Numbered from the stretch's first letter, positions 33,600 through 52,120 are shown. The stretch: DNA of 64,000 nt from Candidatus Acidiferrum sp. (GCA_035602395.1 DATNMH010000052.1:2829-66828); one strand, 5' to 3'. A program made the numbers and translations. Notes: a model not told the origin generated them from the letters alone.

Positions 33600-34462
33600 C
33601 CCGCCATCGCCAGTGGCTCTTGTCCGGCCGGGTAGTTGACCTTGGCGCTGAAGCGGTAGCCGACGCCACGCTTGGTTTGGATGTAGACGGGTTTGCTGGG
33701 GTTGGGCTCGATCTTGCTGCGCAGGCGCGAGATGTGCACGCGCAGGCCCTCTTCGTAGGCTTCCTCGTCGCCGGCCCATGCCTTGGCCAGGAGGGTCTCG
33801 TTGGTGACGACCCGGCCGGCGTTGCGGACGAGGAGGAACAGCAGCTTGGACTCAGTCGGCGTCAGGGTCACCTGCTGGCCTTTGACGCGAGCCCAGTGCT
33901 GGACGAAGTTGATCTGCAGATCCTGGTCGATGACGACTTCCGGCTGCTCGACGCCGGCGGACTCGCCGTAGCGGCGCAGCACGCGCTGCACGCGGGCGAC
34001 CAGCTCTTCTTTCTCGAAGGGCTTGACGATGTAGTCCTCGGCGTACATTTGCAGGCCCTCGACCTTGCTCTCCACCGCCGCGACCGCGCTGAGGATGACG
34101 ATCGGGACATCGAGGTGGCTCTTGATGCGGCGGCAGAGTTCGAAGCCGTCCATCTCCGGCATCATCAGATCGACGACGACCAGGTGCGGGATTCCCTCGT
34201 GGAGTTTGCGCAGCGCCTCGGGACCACTGCCGGCGGTCATGACCTCGTAGCCCGCGTGCTCGAGGATGCGCTTCAGGATCTCGCGCGCCATCGCATCGTC
34301 GTCGACGATTAGAATCCGGTACCGGTTGACGATGTTAAACCCCTCTCTTCCGGCGGCCAGTGCGCGTCGCGCTGCCGACCGGCCACCATGGATTTGGACC
34401 TGCGGCTGCTGGCTCAGGTCCGACTGGAGAGCCGGCAAAGGTATATGGCCCTCGTCATGCAT
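33596..34462 (-). CDS. OmpR/PhoB family response regulator
   Basis: REC (ILIVDDD...VVVDLMMPEMDG...KPF) plus winged helix (LTPTESKLLFLL...IQTKRGVGYRF). The start is uncertain: ATG 34462 gives a 43-aa extension, and the alternative is ATC 34333. Confidence 0.9.
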   Translation of the reverse strand: MHDEGHIPLPALQSDLSQQPQVQIHGGRSAARRALAAGREGFNIVNRYRILIVDDDAMAREILKRILEHAGYEVMTAGSGPEALRKLHEGIPHLVVVDLMMPEMDGFELCRRIKSHLDVPIVILSAVAAVESKVEGLQMYAEDYIVKPFEKEELVARVQRVLRRYGESAGVEQPEVVIDQDLQINFVQHWARVKGQQVTLTPTESKLLFLLVRNAGRVVTNETLLAKAWAGDEEAYEEGLRVHISRLRSKIEPNPSKPVYIQTKRGVGYRFSAKVNYPAGQEPLAMAG

Positions 34463-34605
34463 TTCCTTACGATTCCTCTTTACGATGTGATGACTCTTGT
34501 CGCGTCAGGGTCACATCAGAAGCGGGTGGGCCCGGACTCGGTCTCACCTTAGAGAGGCTGGCTTACGGCGCTTGTTACAGAAACGTGGTTGGTTGCGACG
34601 GGACC

Positions 34606-36177: not shown

Positions 36178-36906
36178 TTGGCCATGTTCATCCCGTTTTT
36201 CGACGGGCGGTACCTCGTCTTCGTCGCTCTGCCGATCATGGCGCTCAGCTTCCTGGCGAGTAGCTGGGTCAAGCGCACCTACCAGCGCTACTCGCAGGTG
36301 CGTTCCTCCAGCGGCTTGACCGGGGTCGACATCGCGCGGCGCATCCTGACGGGCGCCGGCCTGAGCGACGTCACCATCCAGGTGATCGATGGGGATCTCA
36401 CCGATAACTACGATCCGCGAACCAAAACGCTGAACCTCTCCAAACAGGTGGCGATGGGGAACTCGGTCGCGGCCGAGGCGGTGGTCGCTCACGAGATCGG
36501 CCACGCGCAGCAGGACCGCCAGGGGTTCCTGGCCATGCGGCTTCGATCCAGCCTGGTGCCCGCCGCGAACCTTGGTTCGCAGGCCGGGCTGCTGATCGTG
36601 ATCGCCGGTCTGGTCCTCTCGGCGTTTACCGGCAGTACCGTGGGCTTCTATGTGGCCCTCCTGGGCCTGGTGCTCTTTGCCGCCGTCGTCGTCTTCCAGC
36701 TGGTGACGACGCCGGTGGAGCTCGATGCCAGTCGACGCGCCCTTCGTTTGCTGGCGGAGAACGGCGTCATCGTCCCTGAGGAGCAAGACGGCGCTCGGCG
36801 GATGCTGCGGGCCGCCGCCTTCACCTACTGGGTCGCGCTGTTCGGCGCCCTGCTGACCCTGCTGTACTACGCCTCACTCGTGTTCGGAAATCGCCGTAGC
36901 GACTGA
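36178..36906 (+). CDS. putative neutral zinc metallopeptidase (YugP/Zn_peptidase_2 family)
   Basis: HEIGHAQQ zinc motif, membrane helices, and a family-typical N-terminus (YLVFVALPIMALSFLAS). Confidence 0.85.
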   Translation: MAMFIPFFDGRYLVFVALPIMALSFLASSWVKRTYQRYSQVRSSSGLTGVDIARRILTGAGLSDVTIQVIDGDLTDNYDPRTKTLNLSKQVAMGNSVAAEAVVAHEIGHAQQDRQGFLAMRLRSSLVPAANLGSQAGLLIVIAGLVLSAFTGSTVGFYVALLGLVLFAAVVVFQLVTTPVELDASRRALRLLAENGVIVPEEQDGARRMLRAAAFTYWVALFGALLTLLYYASLVFGNRRSD

Positions 36907-37036
36907 GCGCTCGGCGTTCGCCACCGCCGATCCAGCGGAGATTCGCGCCCGACTCGCCGGCGCGGGCGAAGCGCCGTACCGTGTTGACCAGGCCCGACAG
37001 TGGTTCTGGCAGCGGCTCGTCCCGTCGTTCAGCGCC

Positions 37037-37981
37037 ATGCGCACCCTGCCGCCTACCGCGCGCCAGCAGCTGGAGGACTCGTTTGCGTTCAGCACGGTCA
37101 CGCCCCATCTGAAGCGCCAGGCTGATCATGGCCAGACCGTGAAGTACCTCTTCAGGCTGGGGGATGCCCGAACCATCGAAACCGTCGTCATGCATTACGA
37201 GGCGACGGCGCGTTCCCGGGCCCGGACGACCATCTGCGTCAGCTCGCAGGTGGGCTGTCCCATCGGGTGCAGCTTTTGCGCCACCGGCCAATCAGGATTC
37301 GATCGAAACCTCAGCGAGGCTGAGATTGTCGACCAGTTCCTCGCGGCCAGCCGCGACCTGGGTGACAAACAGCGCGCGCTGACGAATGTCGTCTTCATGG
37401 GGATGGGCGAGCCCATGAACAACTACGCCGCAGTGGTGGGCGCGATCCGACGCTGGGCCCTCAAGGACACGCTCAACTTCAGTCCCCGACGGGTTACGGT
37501 GTCGACCATCGGGCTGGTGCCCTTCATCGAGCGCCTCAGCGCCGAGGGCCTGCCGGTCAACCTGGCGGTCTCGCTGCATGCGCCCGACGACGAGCTGCGG
37601 AGCAGCATGATTCCGGTGAACCGCAAGTACCCGATCGCCGCCATCGTCGGGGCGGCGCGCGCCCATGCGGAGCGGACCGGCCGGCGCACCAGCTATGAGT
37701 ACGTTTTGCTGCAGGGCGTCAACGACAGTGTCGAACAGGCTCGACGGCTCACCAGCGTCATCGGTCACCGCCTGACGCATGTCAACCTGATTCCGATGAA
37801 CCCGATCGACGGTAGCCCGCTGTCGCCGCCGTCGAAGGCGCGCGCGCAGGCGTTCCAGTCGATCCTCCAGGCAGCGGGCATCTCGACCACCATCCGTGCC
37901 ACGCGCGGACTGGACATCGACGCCGCCTGCGGCCAGCTGCGAGCCCGGCAGTTGCAGCCGACCGCGCTGTCACCCGCCTGA
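37037..37981 (+). CDS. rlmN: 23S rRNA/tRNA (adenine-C2)-methyltransferase RlmN (radical SAM)
   Basis: CPIGCSFCATG radical-SAM cluster plus MGMGEP. Coordinates start at the first canonical ATG, but RlmN N-terminal homology (EAPYRVDQARQWFW) continues upstream in frame to at least 36929. Confidence 0.9.
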   Translation: MRTLPPTARQQLEDSFAFSTVTPHLKRQADHGQTVKYLFRLGDARTIETVVMHYEATARSRARTTICVSSQVGCPIGCSFCATGQSGFDRNLSEAEIVDQFLAASRDLGDKQRALTNVVFMGMGEPMNNYAAVVGAIRRWALKDTLNFSPRRVTVSTIGLVPFIERLSAEGLPVNLAVSLHAPDDELRSSMIPVNRKYPIAAIVGAARAHAERTGRRTSYEYVLLQGVNDSVEQARRLTSVIGHRLTHVNLIPMNPIDGSPLSPPSKARAQAFQSILQAAGISTTIRATRGLDIDAACGQLRARQLQPTALSPA

Positions 37982-49942: not shown

Positions 49943-49948
49943 TATAAT
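49943..49948 (+). promoter_or_regulatory. consensus -10 hexamer TATAAT 9 nt upstream of the rpmF ATG
   Basis: Perfect TATAAT. No convincing -35 and no SD. Would give a 2-3-nt leader. Confidence 0.3.
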
Positions 49949-49957
49949 GGGCTGCTC

Positions 49958-50134
49958 ATGGCTCTCCCTAAGACTCGATACGCCCATGCCCGCCAGGGCG
50001 AGCGCCGCGCCCACCTGGCGATAAAGCGCACCGCGCTGGTCGAATGCTCGCAGTGCCACCAGCCGAAGCGGCCGCACACGATCTGTCGTAACTGCGGCTA
50101 CTACGACGGCCGCGAAGTCATCAAGACCGACTAG
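49958..50134 (+). CDS. rpmF: 50S ribosomal protein L32
   Basis: Absent from the track (58 aa). MALPKTRYAHARQGERRAHLAIKRTALVECSQCHQPKRPHTICRNCGYYDGREVIKTD. Confidence 0.9.
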   Translation: MALPKTRYAHARQGERRAHLAIKRTALVECSQCHQPKRPHTICRNCGYYDGREVIKTD

Positions 50135-50144
50135 GTCCCAAGCG

Positions 50145-51068
50145 ATCACCGTCGCCTTCCTGTTTCCAGGCCAGGGCGCCCAATTCGTTGGAATGGCCCG
50201 CGACCTTTTGGAAGGGGACCCGGGTTCGTCCGACTTCCTGCGCCAGGCCGAGGACCGGCTGGCGATGCCGCTCGGCCGGCTGATGCTGGACGGACCGGAG
50301 GCCGAGCTGCAGGCGACCAGCAACGCCCAGCCGGCGATCCTGTTTCACAGCCTGGCGCTGCTTCGCCTGATGTCGGCGAGAGGGTTCGCCGCCGCCCTGG
50401 TCGCCGGCCACAGCATGGGCGAGTTCGCCGGGCTGGTGGCGGCGGACGCGCTCGACCCCATCGACGCGCTGGCGGCCGTGCGGGCACGCGGCGGAGCGAT
50501 GTCGGCGGCAGCACCGAAAGCCAGCGGCATGGTCGCCGTACTCGGCCTGGCCGACAGCGCCGTCGAACAGGCATGCGCGAGCAGTGGGGGAGAGGTCGTG
50601 GTCGCCAACTACAACGCACCCGGCCAGGTCGTGATCTCGGGGAGCGAGGCCGGCCTGAAGGCCGTCGGCCCCAAACTCGACGCGGCGGGGGCGAAGCGCC
50701 TGGTGCGCCTGCCCGTCAGCGGCGCTTTCCATTCGCCGCTGATGGCCCACGCGGCGCAGGTCTTCGCCGCCGCCTGGGAGAAGATCCCGCTGCGTGCGTT
50801 ACGACGCCCCCAGGTCTTCAATGCCGACGCACAGGTCCACCAGGATCCGATCGAGGTCCGCGGGCTCATGGTCGGCCAGCTGACCGGCCCGGTGCGCTGG
50901 ACGCAGTCGATCCAGCGGTTGCAGCAGCTTGGAGCCGACACCTACATTGAGGTTGGTCCGCGGCGGACCCTGACCGGGCTGGTCAAGAAGATCCTCCCGG
51001 GCGCGGTGGTCCACAATATCGAGGATCTGGCCAGCATGAACACCACCCTTAAGACCATCCATGGTTGA
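50145..51068 (+). CDS. fabD: malonyl CoA-acyl carrier protein transacylase
   Basis: AFLFPGQGAQFVGM, GHSMGEF, GAFHSP. The first canonical start (ATG 50193) would delete the GQG motif. Start placed at in-frame ATC 50145. Confidence 0.88.
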   Translation: MTVAFLFPGQGAQFVGMARDLLEGDPGSSDFLRQAEDRLAMPLGRLMLDGPEAELQATSNAQPAILFHSLALLRLMSARGFAAALVAGHSMGEFAGLVAADALDPIDALAAVRARGGAMSAAAPKASGMVAVLGLADSAVEQACASSGGEVVVANYNAPGQVVISGSEAGLKAVGPKLDAAGAKRLVRLPVSGAFHSPLMAHAAQVFAAAWEKIPLRALRRPQVFNADAQVHQDPIEVRGLMVGQLTGPVRWTQSIQRLQQLGADTYIEVGPRRTLTGLVKKILPGAVVHNIEDLASMNTTLKTIHG

Positions 51069-51810
51069 CGGCTTTTCGGAACAGGTCGTCCTGGTCACCG
51101 GTGGAAGCCGTGGCATCGGTCGTGCTACCGCCGTCCTCTTCGGACAGACAGGCGCCAAGGTTGCCATTACGTACAAGAGCCGCCAGGCGGAGGCCGACGC
51201 GCTGGTCGAGGAGCTGTCGCACCAGGGCCACCAGGCGATGGCGCTGCAGGCGGACTTCGCCGACAGCTCGGCACCGGCGACGGCCGTCGAGGCCGTCGTG
51301 AAACAGTGGGGCCGCCTCGACGTCCTGGTCAACAACGCCGGGCTGACCCGGGACACCCTGGTGATGCGGATGAGCGAAGCCGACTGGGACATCGTGATCC
51401 AGACCAATCTGAAAGCGGCGTTTCTTGCCAGCAAGGCCGCGCTGCGACCGATGCTCAAGCAAAAATACGGCCGTATCGTCAACGTGTCGTCGCTCGCCGG
51501 CGTGGCCGGCAATGCCGGCCAGGCCAACTACAGCGCGTCGAAGGCCGGGTTGATCGGGCTGACCAAGTCGCTCGCCAAGGAGGTCGGCTCCCGGAACATC
51601 ACGGTCAATGCCGTCGCTCCCGGATTCATCACAACGGAGCTGACCAGCGGTCTGCCCGTCGAGCTGCTGGAGCGCGCCCGCCAGGCGGCGGCGATCCCCC
51701 GGATCGGGACGCCGGACGACGTCGCGCCGGCCATCGTGTTCCTCGCGTCGCGGGCTGCCGGCTACATCACCGGCCAGGTTCTGGGCATTGACGGCGGTCT
51801 CCCGATCTAG
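51061..51810 (+). CDS. fabG: 3-oxoacyl-ACP reductase
   Basis: TGGSRGIGRA, NNAG, and YSASKAG in an SDR fold. Confidence 0.92.
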   Translation: MVDGFSEQVVLVTGGSRGIGRATAVLFGQTGAKVAITYKSRQAEADALVEELSHQGHQAMALQADFADSSAPATAVEAVVKQWGRLDVLVNNAGLTRDTLVMRMSEADWDIVIQTNLKAAFLASKAALRPMLKQKYGRIVNVSSLAGVAGNAGQANYSASKAGLIGLTKSLAKEVGSRNITVNAVAPGFITTELTSGLPVELLERARQAAAIPRIGTPDDVAPAIVFLASRAAGYITGQVLGIDGGLPI

Positions 51811-51871
51811 GAAGATGGGCCCCGCTTGGTCTAGAATTTGACCGCACTTGCACTAGCTAGAAGGGGAGTCG

Positions 51872-52120
51872 ATGGACGGGAACAGCTACGAGAAATTCAA
51901 AGGCATCATCGCCGAGCAGCTCGGCGTGGATACCGAGCAAGTCACACCCGACGCCTCTTTCGTCGACGACCTGAACGCGGATTCCCTCGACCTGGTCGAA
52001 TTGATCATGGCGTTCGAGGAAGAATACGGAATGGAGATACCTGACGAGGACGCTGAAAAGATCCAGACCGTCGGTGCCGCGTGGGACTACGTTCAAGAAA
52101 AGCTCGGAATCACCACCTGA
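51872..52120 (+). CDS. acpP: acyl carrier protein
   Basis: [32 protein letters not shown] upstream. Confidence 0.95.

What the first reader, a model, noticed from the sequence alone, without database searches (positions are those of the whole stretch)
50135..50195. fabD: the conserved N-terminus including the GQG motif lies upstream of the first canonical start codon; in-frame ATC sits at the expected position
Between the in-frame stop at 50022-50024 and ATG 50193 there is no ATG, GTG or TTG, and the ORF track agrees. Yet the frame encodes ...AITVAFLFPGQGAQFVGM.... This matches the universal FabD N-terminus (E. coli MTQFAFVFPGQGSQTVGM). ATG 50193 corresponds to the internal Met of VGM.

Starting at ATC 50145 gives (M)TVAFLFPGQG, which is exactly the usual length. 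rpmF ends at 50134, so the geometry also fits.

This is the clearest of several cases in this window that point to AUC/AUA initiation, or alternatively to local assembly errors.
Basis: partly seen in the sequence, partly recalled or inferred. Interest (0 to 1): 0.6.

Follow-up and report, generated by a model that had tools for sequence, protein, structure and literature searches.

The report
fabD gene starting at conserved AUC
In this uncultured soil bacterium (Dormibacterota), the fatty-acid enzyme gene fabD has no normal start codon and almost certainly begins at a weak AUC codon ten bases after the ribosomal-protein gene rpmF; this arrangement is kept across a whole bacterial family, and public annotations cut the protein short.

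Summary
Between the in-frame TAA at 50022-50024 and ATG 50193 there is no ATG, GTG or TTG. Yet this stretch encodes the conserved FabD N-terminus, including the GQG active-site loop.

ATC 50145 lies where 78 of 78 control FabD genes from other phyla have a canonical start (within -3 to +1 codons).

Assembly error is excluded. An independent metagenome assembly has the identical junction. 36 related genes from the same family all lack a canonical start there. The aligned codon is ATC (22), CTG (6, plus 1 one codon upstream) or ATT (3). The remaining 4 have ACG at the next codon. In many species an in-frame stop lies only 1-3 codons upstream (aligned codons -2 to -4).

Residues +3 to +16 are nearly invariant (5 of 504 residues differ) and most codon variation there is synonymous. 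The 1-13 nt spacer after the rpmF stop is variable.

NCBI's CTG 50160 start (302 aa) and the ATG 50193 start (291 aa) are both wrong.

The most likely mechanism is near-cognate initiation by the normal initiator tRNA. It is probably carried out by ribosomes that have just finished the apparently leaderless rpmF, which would throttle fabD and fabG.

At least about 12 other genes in this genome, including L25 (CTG) and infC (ACG), also lack canonical starts.

This is a new member of a known kind.

The parts
49943..49948 (+). TATAAT box (-10-like) 9 nt upstream of the rpmF ATG, with no Shine-Dalgarno in between. This implies a leaderless or at most 3-nt-leader rpmF mRNA.
   Evidence: Sequence. 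The box (TATAAT; TAGAAT or TACACT in other families) lies 9-12 nt before the rpmF ATG in every locus with rpmF upstream: about 50 loci across the class. The sequence further upstream is not conserved. No consensus -35 was found. The transcription start has not been mapped.
49958..50134 (+). rpmF (ribosomal protein L32, 58 aa), ATG start and TAG stop. It is the first gene of the operon.
   Evidence: TIGR01031, 70.5 bits against a cut-off of 22.6. ORF list.
50133..50136 (+). AGGU, a weak Shine-Dalgarno-like tetramer overlapping the rpmF stop, 8 nt before the AUC.
   Evidence: 'gacTAGGT' is kept in the genus. The genome uses an SD, with GGAG peaking at -12/-11. It is not conserved in the sister genera that use CTG, so its role is uncertain.
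50135..50144 (+). 10-nt spacer between the rpmF stop and the fabD start.
   Evidence: Across the family the spacer is 1-13 nt, varies in sequence, has indels, and puts fabD in all three frames relative to rpmF.
50145..50147 (+). ATC, the proposed fabD initiation codon (read as fMet).
   Evidence: At the aligned position: ATC 22, CTG 6, ATT 3 of 36. Outgroups have GTG, TTG or ATG. In-frame stops lie 1-3 codons upstream in many species. The TIGR00128 score is highest with this start.
50145..51068 (+). fabD-like malonyl-CoA:ACP transacylase, 307 aa, stop TGA at 51066-51068.
   Evidence: TIGR00128, 259.2 bits (cut-off 260.9) over profile positions 3-287. Best solved-structure matches are FabD enzymes, E = 1e-56.
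50160..50162 (+). CTG, the start used in the NCBI record of this MAG (302-aa 'MFPGQG...'). Rejected here.
   Evidence: The 302-aa form is in NCBI on a 72,641-nt contig, the same length as contig C52. At this aligned codon 7 of 36 relatives have CTC or CTT.
50169..50177 (+). GGC CAG GGC, the GQG loop. The E. coli Gln11 backbone amide forms the oxyanion hole.
   Evidence: Invariant in 36 of 36 relatives, with synonymous variation. The role of Gln11 is taken from 10.1101/2020.05.15.098798.
50193..50195 (+). ATG, the first canonical start. It is the internal Met of VGM and is used by the JGI/IMG, ENA and Logan gene calls (291 aa). Rejected here.
   Evidence: The exact 291-aa protein is present in those sources. 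It loses 33 bits of the TIGR00128 score and the GQG loop.
51061..51810 (+). fabG (3-oxoacyl-ACP reductase). Its ATG overlaps the end of fabD by 8 nt and has no SD, so it is probably translationally coupled to fabD.
   Evidence: Pfam adh_short/KR on the same gene in L149.
51872..52120 (+). acpP (acyl carrier protein). It has its own AAGGGGAG SD (51861-51868) and a TAGAAT box (51832-51837), so it is probably expressed independently of the weak fabD start.
   Evidence: Read from sequence only.
36890..37981 (+). rlmN, a second gene in this window without a canonical start before its conserved N-terminal domain. The candidate starts are ATC 36890 and ATT 36941.
   Evidence: The conserved 'EAPYRVDQARQWFWQRL' lies upstream of the first canonical start, ATG 37037. 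Relatives G022 (ATG) and G009 (TTG) have canonical codons further upstream, so the start position varies.

Best explanation
fabD is translated from AUC 50145. The ordinary initiator tRNA-fMet pairs imperfectly with this near-cognate codon and gives a 307-residue enzyme, (f)Met-TVAFLFPGQG....

The gene lies 10 nt behind the stop codon of rpmF. rpmF itself appears to be the leaderless first gene of the operon. The most likely route is as follows. Ribosomes that have just terminated on rpmF restart on the nearby AUC, possibly helped by the weak AGGU that overlaps the stop. Because AUC is a poor start, only a small fraction restart. This steps expression down from an abundant ribosomal protein to a catalytic enzyme. 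fabG overlaps the end of fabD by 8 nt and follows it. acpP has its own ribosome-binding site.

What is shown:
- There is no canonical start.
- The codons from +3 are under protein-level selection.
- A near-cognate codon is kept at the homologous position across a family.

What is inferred:
- fMet is the first residue.
- Translation is coupled to rpmF.
- rpmF is leaderless.
- A weak start is selected for.

My probability that the start is this AUC is about 0.9. My probability that it depends mainly on rpmF termination is about 0.55.
For: (1) There is no ATG, GTG or TTG from 50025 to 50192.

(2) HMM and solved-structure alignments begin 2 codons after the ATC. The TIGR00128 score is 259.2 bits for the ATC form, 253.5 for the CTG form and 226.2 for the ATG form.

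(3) In 36 family sequences with fabD behind rpmF:
- The codon at position 0 is ATC 22, CTG 6 (plus 1 at -1) and ATT 3. The other 4 have ACG at +1.
- Positions +3 to +16 are nearly invariant in amino acid (5 of 504 residues differ; one nonsynonymous variant at each of +3 and +11, two at each of +13 and +14), and most codon variation there is synonymous.
- Positions -1 and upstream are variable and include in-frame TAG/TAA at -2, -3 and -4.

(4) Other families of the class have GTG, TTG or ATG at the same position. 78 of 78 control FabD loci from other phyla have a canonical start at -3 to +1.

(5) An independent assembly has the identical junction.

(6) The initiator tRNA is canonical: C1:A72 mismatch and three G-C pairs in the anticodon stem.

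(7) For coupling:
- The spacer is 1-13 nt throughout the family. That is within the range where termination-reinitiation works and below the roughly 20 nt that abolishes it (PMC10666635).
- Other non-canonical starts in this genome also sit at gene junctions: CTGA overlaps at RdgB, RibD_C, a UvrA-like gene and UbiA; TGA + 9 nt + ATC at a DAO oxidoreductase.

(8) For leaderless rpmF: a TATAAT-type box sits at a fixed 9-12 nt before the ATG in about 50 loci, with no SD.

(9) In E. coli, AUC initiates at about 1-2% of AUG and gives an N-terminal Met (10.1101/063800).
Against: - There is no direct evidence of the protein N-terminus or of the transcription start.
- The SD-like AGGU is weak and is not conserved in the sister genera.
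- The genome-wide SD test showed no enrichment for ATC. The statistical start-codon models had no power.
- One genus of the family (3 genomes) has a normal ATG 9 nt after the upstream stop. A strong start is therefore tolerated there.
- A second, better-scoring FabD with a canonical ATG exists elsewhere in the genome (TIGR00128 319.9 bits). Weak expression of this copy could be tolerated rather than selected.
- Local RNA structure is no better than in shuffled sequence (z = -0.04).
Confidence: 0.6

Rival explanations
1. The start is the same AUC 50145, but 30S subunits initiate there de novo. They would be recruited by the AGGU element and be independent of rpmF translation. The weak codon would serve as an IF3-sensitive control point, like infC in E. 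coli.
For: - infC of this genome itself lacks a canonical start. It has AAGGAGG, then 8 nt, then ACG, with an in-frame TGA one codon upstream. The IF3_N domain starts at residue 9 and the first TTG is at residue 28. The classical IF3 autoregulatory design therefore seems to be present.
- L25 uses CTG behind a strong SD, with no coupling needed.
- 'TAGGT' is conserved in the genus.
Against: - AGGU is only 4 nt and is absent from the sister genera that use CTG or ATT.
- The stand-alone non-canonical starts in this genome have strong SDs (AGGAGG, AAGGAGG, GGAGGA). fabD does not.
- The tight, family-wide 1-13 nt distance to the rpmF stop fits coupling better.
Confidence: 0.3
2. Translation starts at CTG 50160, as annotated in the NCBI record. 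This gives a 302-aa protein beginning MFPGQG.
For: - CTG is a known near-cognate start and is used elsewhere in this genome, for example at L25.
- The 302-aa form is what NCBI holds.
- It retains the GQG loop and scores 253.5 bits.
Against: - The aligned codon is CTC or CTT in 7 of 36 relatives, so it is simply a Leu codon.
- The five codons upstream of it are in frame and free of indels. A3 and F4 are invariant or nearly so, and variation at +1/+2 is conservative (T/S, V/L).
- It would remove most of strand beta-1, which solved FabDs align from residue 3-4.
- There is no SD-like sequence upstream.
Confidence: 0.06
3. Translation starts at ATG 50193, as in the Prodigal-type calls (291 aa). The upstream similarity would then be untranslated.
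For: It is the first canonical start and the form held by JGI/IMG, ENA and Logan.
Against: - It would delete strand beta-1 and the GQG loop. The Gln11 backbone amide of that loop forms the oxyanion hole.
- 33 bits of HMM score are lost.
- The 14 upstream codons (+3 to +16) are nearly invariant at the protein level, with mostly synonymous variation, in 36 genomes.
Confidence: 0.02
4. A sequencing or assembly error (for example ATG misread as ATC, or an indel), or a recoding event that fuses L32 to FabD by read-through or a frameshift.
For: The sequence comes from a MAG. The rpmF stop is only 10 nt away.
Against: - An independent assembly has the identical sequence.
- ATC is found in 22 species-level genomes.
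- fabD lies in all three frames relative to rpmF in different species, with spacers of 9, 10 and 11 nt among the ATC group alone. No single recoding mechanism fits.
- There is no Rfam element.
Confidence: 0.02

Closest known systems
E. coli infC (IF3) and pcnB, which start at AUU
   Same: An essential, conserved gene whose only possible start is a near-cognate AUH codon read by the normal initiator tRNA, giving deliberately low translation. The codon is conserved among relatives. These are the only two confirmed non-canonical starts in E. coli (10.1101/063800).
   Different: - The codon here is AUC, and it alternates with AUU, CUG and probably ACG among relatives.
- The gene is a lipid-synthesis enzyme.
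- There is no strong SD.
- The start lies 10 nt after another gene's stop.
- IF3 dependence has not been tested.
Translational coupling by termination-reinitiation at short intergenic distances (Huber et al. 2023, PMC10666635)
   Same: A unidirectional gene pair whose downstream start lies within about 10 nt of the upstream stop. That paper reports a class of E. coli gene pairs spaced around +10 nt, and loss of coupling at about 20 nt.
   Different: The pairs studied there restart at canonical codons. Here the restart codon is near-cognate, and the upstream gene seems to be leaderless. Coupling has not been demonstrated for this locus.
E. coli yceD-rpmF-plsX-fabH-fabD-fabG-acpP-fabF cluster
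   Same: rpmF is co-located and co-transcribed with fatty-acid synthesis genes, which has been read as a link between ribosome and membrane synthesis (PMC3896788). The order fabD-fabG-acpP is the same.
   Different: - Here plsX and fabH are absent, so fabD abuts rpmF directly.
- rpmF has no yceD in front of it.
- fabF lies in a second cluster (acpP2-fabD2-fabF) on another contig.
E. coli FabD, malonyl-CoA:ACP transacylase (PDB 1MLA, 2G1H)
   Same: Full-length alignment at E = 7e-55. The GQG, GHSxG, Arg and His motifs are present.
   Different: It scores 1.7 bits below the curated TIGR00128 equivalog cut-off. A paralogue in the same genome scores 319.9 bits.

Membership tests
FabD, ACP S-malonyltransferase (NCBIfam TIGR00128 equivalog) | Whole-protein score at or above the curated cut-off (260.9 bits) | tested here: not met
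   259.2 bits with the ATC start, which is 1.7 bits short. The paralogue on C21 scores 319.9 bits. I therefore call this gene 'fabD-like malonyl-CoA:ACP transacylase' rather than a proven equivalog.
FabD, ACP S-malonyltransferase (NCBIfam TIGR00128 equivalog) | Catalytic motifs: GQG loop, GHSxG nucleophile elbow, the malonyl-binding Arg, and the catalytic His | tested here: met
   In the alignments to solved FabDs, FPGQG, AGHSMGEF, VRARGGAM and VSGAFHSPLM align with fpgqg, aghslgey, velrgqlm and vsvpshcalm.
FabD, ACP S-malonyltransferase (NCBIfam TIGR00128 equivalog) | Genomic context with other type II fatty-acid synthesis genes | tested here: met
   The order is rpmF-fabD-fabG-acpP.
Genes with a near-cognate (non-ATG/GTG/TTG) start codon, infC/pcnB type | No canonical start between the nearest upstream in-frame stop and the conserved, functionally required N-terminus | tested here: met
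   In relatives the in-frame stop lies only 1-3 codons upstream.
Genes with a near-cognate (non-ATG/GTG/TTG) start codon, infC/pcnB type | A near-cognate codon is conserved at the position where relatives have a canonical start | tested here: met
   ATC 22, CTG 7, ATT 3 and ACG (+1) 4 of 36. Outgroups have GTG, TTG or ATG. 78 of 78 controls are canonical.
Genes with a near-cognate (non-ATG/GTG/TTG) start codon, infC/pcnB type | N-terminal (f)Met demonstrated at that codon, and sensitivity of initiation to IF3 | not testable with these tools
   This needs proteomics or reporter assays. The organism is uncultured.
Translational coupling by termination-reinitiation | The downstream start overlaps the upstream stop or lies within about 20 nt of it | tested here: met
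   10 nt here and 1-13 nt in 36 relatives. The threshold is from PMC10666635.
Translational coupling by termination-reinitiation | Downstream translation depends on translation of the upstream gene | not testable with these tools
   This needs a reporter with a premature stop in rpmF.
Leaderless mRNA (for rpmF) | A -10 element at a fixed short distance from the start codon and no SD | tested here: met
   TATAAT, TAGAAT or TACACT lies 9-12 nt before the ATG in about 50 loci of the class.
Leaderless mRNA (for rpmF) | Mapped transcription start at, or within a few nt of, the start codon | not testable with these tools

The most novel reading that the evidence does not exclude
This Dormibacterota family keeps a set of 'weak-start' genes whose output is set by near-cognate start codons. 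The set includes translation genes (infC at ACG, infB at AUA, rplY/L25 at CUG, rlmN at AUC) and fabD/fabG. Many sit at reinitiation junctions behind other genes or behind leaderless ORFs. In this reading start-codon stringency (IF3 level, or the 70S versus 30S initiation route) acts as a global dial. It would couple ribosome production, initiation-factor supply and membrane-lipid synthesis, which could matter for entry into and exit from dormancy in these slow-growing soil bacteria.
Probability: 0.2. Interest if true: 0.75.

Novelty: new member of a known kind. Interest (0 to 1): 0.5.

Why it matters
- **Annotation.** Every public gene call examined for this protein is too short: 291 aa in JGI/IMG, ENA and Logan, and 302 aa at NCBI. 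The 291-aa form lacks an active-site element. The same error must affect the whole family, and also genes such as L25, infC, infB, rlmN and RdgB. Gene finders restricted to ATG/GTG/TTG will systematically damage proteomes of this phylum.
- **Biology.** A near-cognate start has been kept through the diversification of a bacterial family. It switches among AUC, AUU, CUG and ACG and only once becomes AUG. This is good comparative evidence that weak start codons can be selected as expression setters.
- **Mechanism.** The arrangement is leaderless rpmF, a 10-nt spacer, AUC-fabD, then overlapping fabG. It is a compact, testable model for how reinitiating ribosomes treat near-cognate codons, and for a fixed link between ribosome and lipid synthesis.

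Tried and rejected
- **Exotic initiator tRNA (for example anticodon GAU).** Only a canonical tRNA-fMet and one other CAU tRNA were found. The MAG is 86% complete, so this is not absolute. The mix of ATC, ATT, CTG and ACG argues against a dedicated tRNA anyway.
- **Genome-wide statistics for ATC starts.** An SD-enrichment test by codon type showed only a weak CTG signal (p = 0.005) and nothing for ATC. Two EM models with all 61 codons as possible starts were dominated by model artefacts or noise. I do not rely on them.
- **Change-point candidates.** Many were false or had other causes:
  - g18 of the window is a lipoprotein with a normal ATG further downstream.
  - A Lon fragment, a molybdopterin oxidoreductase fragment (probably behind a Sec-TGA) and the prfB frameshift.
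  - MutS, DnaK, PBP1A, a GT2 protein and PGA_cap have canonical starts.
- **RNA elements.** There is no Rfam match. Local folding is not better than in shuffled sequence. A 5-bp hairpin at 50142-50155 that includes the AUC was flagged only by the terminator scan, at chance level.
- **The search for related loci in genome contigs.** It was swamped by generic FabD patterns and returned mostly Bacteroidota. I reused those loci as a control set.
- **The look-up of sequencing runs.** No read-level or RNA evidence could be obtained.
- **Literature.** Searches for start-codon usage in Dormibacterota found nothing.

Full report
**1. The observation**

The window sequence, the ORF list and a direct translation confirm every coordinate in the finding.
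- rpmF (L32; TIGR01031, 70.5 bits) runs 49958-50134 and ends in TAG.
- The next frame is open from 50025, after TAA at 50022-50024.
- That frame has no ATG, GTG or TTG until ATG 50193.
- It reads ...RSQA-ITVAFLFPGQGAQFVGM-ARD..., with ATC at 50145.

The fabD model TIGR00128 aligns from its position 3 at Val 50151. Solved FabD structures align their residues 3-5 to the same residues.

The Gln of the GQG loop (Gln11 in E. coli) contributes a backbone amide to the oxyanion hole (10.1101/2020.05.15.098798). A protein starting at Met 50193 would therefore lack an active-site element. It also loses 33 bits of HMM score (226.2 against 259.2).

**2. Is it an artefact?**

No.
- The exact 291-aa downstream product occurs on six public contigs.
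- One independent ENA assembly (ERZ28654883, scaffold_71) has the identical rpmF-fabD junction, including ATC.
- The genome is a Dormibacterota MAG of 2.13 Mb in 71 contigs. Species-level relatives show the same thing.

**3. Comparative evidence**

I collected 36 sequences from the same family in which fabD lies directly behind rpmF.

*The aligned start position (position 0)*
- ATC in 22, CTG in 6 (plus one with CTG at -1), ATT in 3.
- The four remaining sequences (G010, G094, G052, G104) all have ACG at +1.
- None has ATG, GTG or TTG before the internal Met or Val at +14/+16.

*Bounds on the start*
- In many species an in-frame stop lies only 1-3 codons upstream. Examples are TAA-GCG-ATC in G002 and the rpmF TAG followed by GTT-TYT-CCG-ATC in seven others.
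- The start must therefore lie between about -3 and +3.

*Selection on the downstream codons*
- Positions +3 to +16 read A-F-L-F-P-G-Q-G-A-Q-F-V-G-M. They are nearly invariant in amino acid: 5 of 504 residues differ, at +3, +11, +13 and +14.
- Most codon variation there is synonymous, at third positions.
- So these codons are translated and under purifying selection.

*The upstream spacer*
- The spacer after the rpmF stop is 1-13 nt long, varies in sequence and has indels.
- Conservation switches on within about 3 codons of position 0.

*Outgroups and controls*
- Other families of the class have GTG, TTG or ATG at position 0.
- In 78 FabD loci from other phyla, my pipeline finds a canonical start at -3 to +1 in 78 of 78 (ATG 74, TTG 3, GTG 1).

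*The exception*
- One genus in the family (three genomes) has ATG three codons upstream, 9 nt after the upstream stop.

A rough tree shows several changes among near-cognate states within the family.

**4. Which codon?**

Public sources disagree.
- JGI/IMG, ENA and Logan hold the 291-aa ATG 50193 form.
- NCBI holds a 302-aa form starting at CTG 50160. It sits on a 72,641-nt contig, the same length as this contig.
- The 307-aa ATC form is in none of them.

CTG 50160 is not the start.
- The aligned codon is CTC or CTT in 7 of 36 relatives.
- The codons upstream of it are conserved in frame.
- It scores lower (253.5 bits).

Read-through or frameshift fusion with L32 is excluded. Spacers of 9, 10 and 11 nt put fabD in all three frames relative to rpmF among the ATC species alone.

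**5. Mechanism**

*The initiator tRNA*
- It is ordinary: C1:A72 mismatch and three G-C pairs in the anticodon stem.
- The simplest reading is near-cognate pairing at AUC.
- In E. coli, AUC, AUU, AUA and CUG initiate at about 1-2% of AUG and give an N-terminal Met (10.1101/063800).

*Evidence for reinitiation after rpmF*

Three observations point to reinitiation by ribosomes that have just finished rpmF.
- The stop-to-start distance is short across the family. It is within the range where termination-reinitiation works (PMC10666635).
- There is no real SD. Only AGGU overlaps the stop, and it is not conserved outside the genus. By contrast, the stand-alone non-canonical starts of this genome carry strong SDs.
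- rpmF itself looks leaderless. A TATAAT box (TAGAAT or TACACT in other families) lies 9-12 nt before its ATG in about 50 loci across the class. No SD lies between, and nothing is conserved further upstream.

*Consequences for the operon*
- fabG overlaps the end of fabD by 8 nt without an SD.
- acpP has its own AAGGGGAG and a TAGAAT box.
- The weak start would therefore throttle fabD and fabG but not ACP.

The coupling, the leaderless status and selection for weakness are all inferences.

**6. Genome context**

*Within the window*

A crude gene caller of my own gave 76 calls in the window and 2,059 in the genome.
- In the window, only fabD and rlmN clearly lack a usable canonical start.
- The OmpR-like regulator is ambiguous. 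An ATC sits behind GAGAGGGG, but relatives have ATG nine codons upstream, where G000 and G003 have CTG.

*Genome-wide*

I checked the 40 strongest candidates, plus infC, against Pfam. In the following genes a domain begins upstream of any usable canonical start.

| Gene or family | Contig |
|---|---|
| RibD_C protein | C61 |
| Eis-like GNAT | C64 |
| FTCD | C9 |
| Amidohydrolase | C6 |
| HemL | C28 |
| DAO oxidoreductases (two) | C28 |
| RdgB | C25 |
| L25 | C28 |
| infC | C32 |

infB, UbiA, an MFS transporter, a UvrA-like protein and PduO are probable further cases. With fabD and rlmN this makes at least 12 of 2,059 calls.

*The clear cases*
- L25: AGGAGG, 7 nt, then CTG directly after an in-frame TAG.
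- infC: AAGGAGG, 8 nt, then ACG.
- infB: GGAGGA, 10 nt, then ATA.
- FTCD: GGGAGG, 6 nt, then CTG.
- RdgB, RibD_C, UvrA-like and UbiA: CTGA stop-start overlaps.
- One DAO gene: TGA, 9 nt, then ATC.

I followed up L25. It has CTG in 22 of 23 genomes of the genus and GTG in the remaining one. In-frame stops immediately precede the CTG in seven genomes. Other families have ATG.

HemL and one DAO gene have no ATH, CTG or ACG where a start is expected. They remain unexplained.

My statistical attempts to estimate codon-type usage genome-wide failed.

**7. A caveat on function**

This protein scores 1.7 bits below the TIGR00128 cut-off. A paralogue in an acpP2-fabD2-fabF cluster on C21 scores 319.9 bits and has a normal ATG. 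Both copies are present in nearly all relatives. Low output of the rpmF-linked copy may therefore be tolerated rather than optimised.

**8. Verdict**

This is a new, well-supported example of a known phenomenon: the gene-specific near-cognate start codon, as in infC and pcnB. It has an unusually clear comparative signature and a plausible reinitiation mechanism. It sits in a lineage that uses such starts for roughly 1% of its genes.

Noticed in passing
window 49943-49960; loci L001-L029, L128-L147: rpmF seems to be transcribed as a leaderless (or at most 3-nt-leader) mRNA throughout the class. A TATAAT, TAGAAT or TACACT box lies 9-12 nt before the ATG and there is no SD. Everything further upstream is unconserved.
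   Followed up: partly
G000 C28:50870-51544 (-), locus L150; relatives L151-L172: Ribosomal protein L25 (rplY/ctc) starts at CTG, 7 nt behind GAAGGAG(G). This holds in 22 of 23 genomes of the genus; one has GTG at the same codon. An in-frame TAG or TAA immediately precedes the CTG in seven genomes. Other families use ATG.
   Followed up: yes
G000 C32:9438-10022 (-), locus L148: infC (IF3) has no canonical start. It reads AAGGAGG, 8 nt, then ACG, with TGA one codon upstream. The IF3_N domain begins at residue 9 and the first TTG is at residue 28. A terminator-like hairpin with a T-run lies just upstream.
   Followed up: partly
G000 C33:32301-34280 (-): infB (IF2) has no canonical start before its N-terminal IF2_N-like segment. 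The likely start is ATA, 10 nt behind GGAGGA.
   Followed up: partly
window 36857-37036: rlmN has 60 in-frame codons, including the conserved N-terminal helix, before the first canonical start (ATG 37037). ATC 36890 overlaps the end of the upstream gene by 17 nt. Relatives differ: ATG in G022, TTG in G009, and neither in G006.
   Followed up: partly
window 34300-34470 (- strand): The leader of the OmpR-type regulator is almost identical at the nucleotide level in seven species. ATC 34333 lies behind GAGAGGGG in all of them. An ATG nine codons upstream in five species is CTG in G000 and G003.
   Followed up: partly
G000 C25:24533, C61:4507, C6:3238 and C6:23137 (oriented coordinates): Several genes whose Pfam domain starts before any canonical start begin at a CTGA junction, where the CTG start overlaps the upstream TGA stop. 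They are RdgB, a RibD_C protein, a UvrA-like protein and UbiA. About 20 such junctions have no canonical start within 8 codons.
   Followed up: partly
G000 C21:40504-45360: There is a second fatty-acid synthesis cluster. It consists of acpP2-fabD2-fabF, with a divergent ketosynthase gene and a FabH-like gene. fabD2 scores 319.9 bits on TIGR00128 and has a normal ATG. Both fabD copies occur in nearly all relatives.
   Followed up: partly
G000 C28:69194-70471 (+) and C28:3787-4938 (-): In HemL and a DAO-family oxidoreductase the Pfam domain starts 30 or more codons before the first canonical start. There is no ATH, CTG or ACG codon where a start is expected. An indel in the MAG or some other start is possible.
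   Followed up: no
G000 C37:37713-39224 (-): The Lon protease ORF opens directly after a stop, at the AAA+ domain. The N-terminal substrate-binding domain is missing from this frame. This could be a split gene, a frameshift or an assembly problem.
   Followed up: no
window 51832-51871: acpP has its own TAGAAT box and AAGGGGAG ribosome-binding site in the 61-nt gap after fabG. ACP is therefore probably expressed independently of the weak fabD start.
   Followed up: no
public protein collection: The 90%-identity cluster that holds the truncated FabD forms (291 and 302 aa) has a 249-aa FabG as its representative and mostly FabG members. This looks like a clustering artefact that could mislead name transfer.
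   Followed up: no
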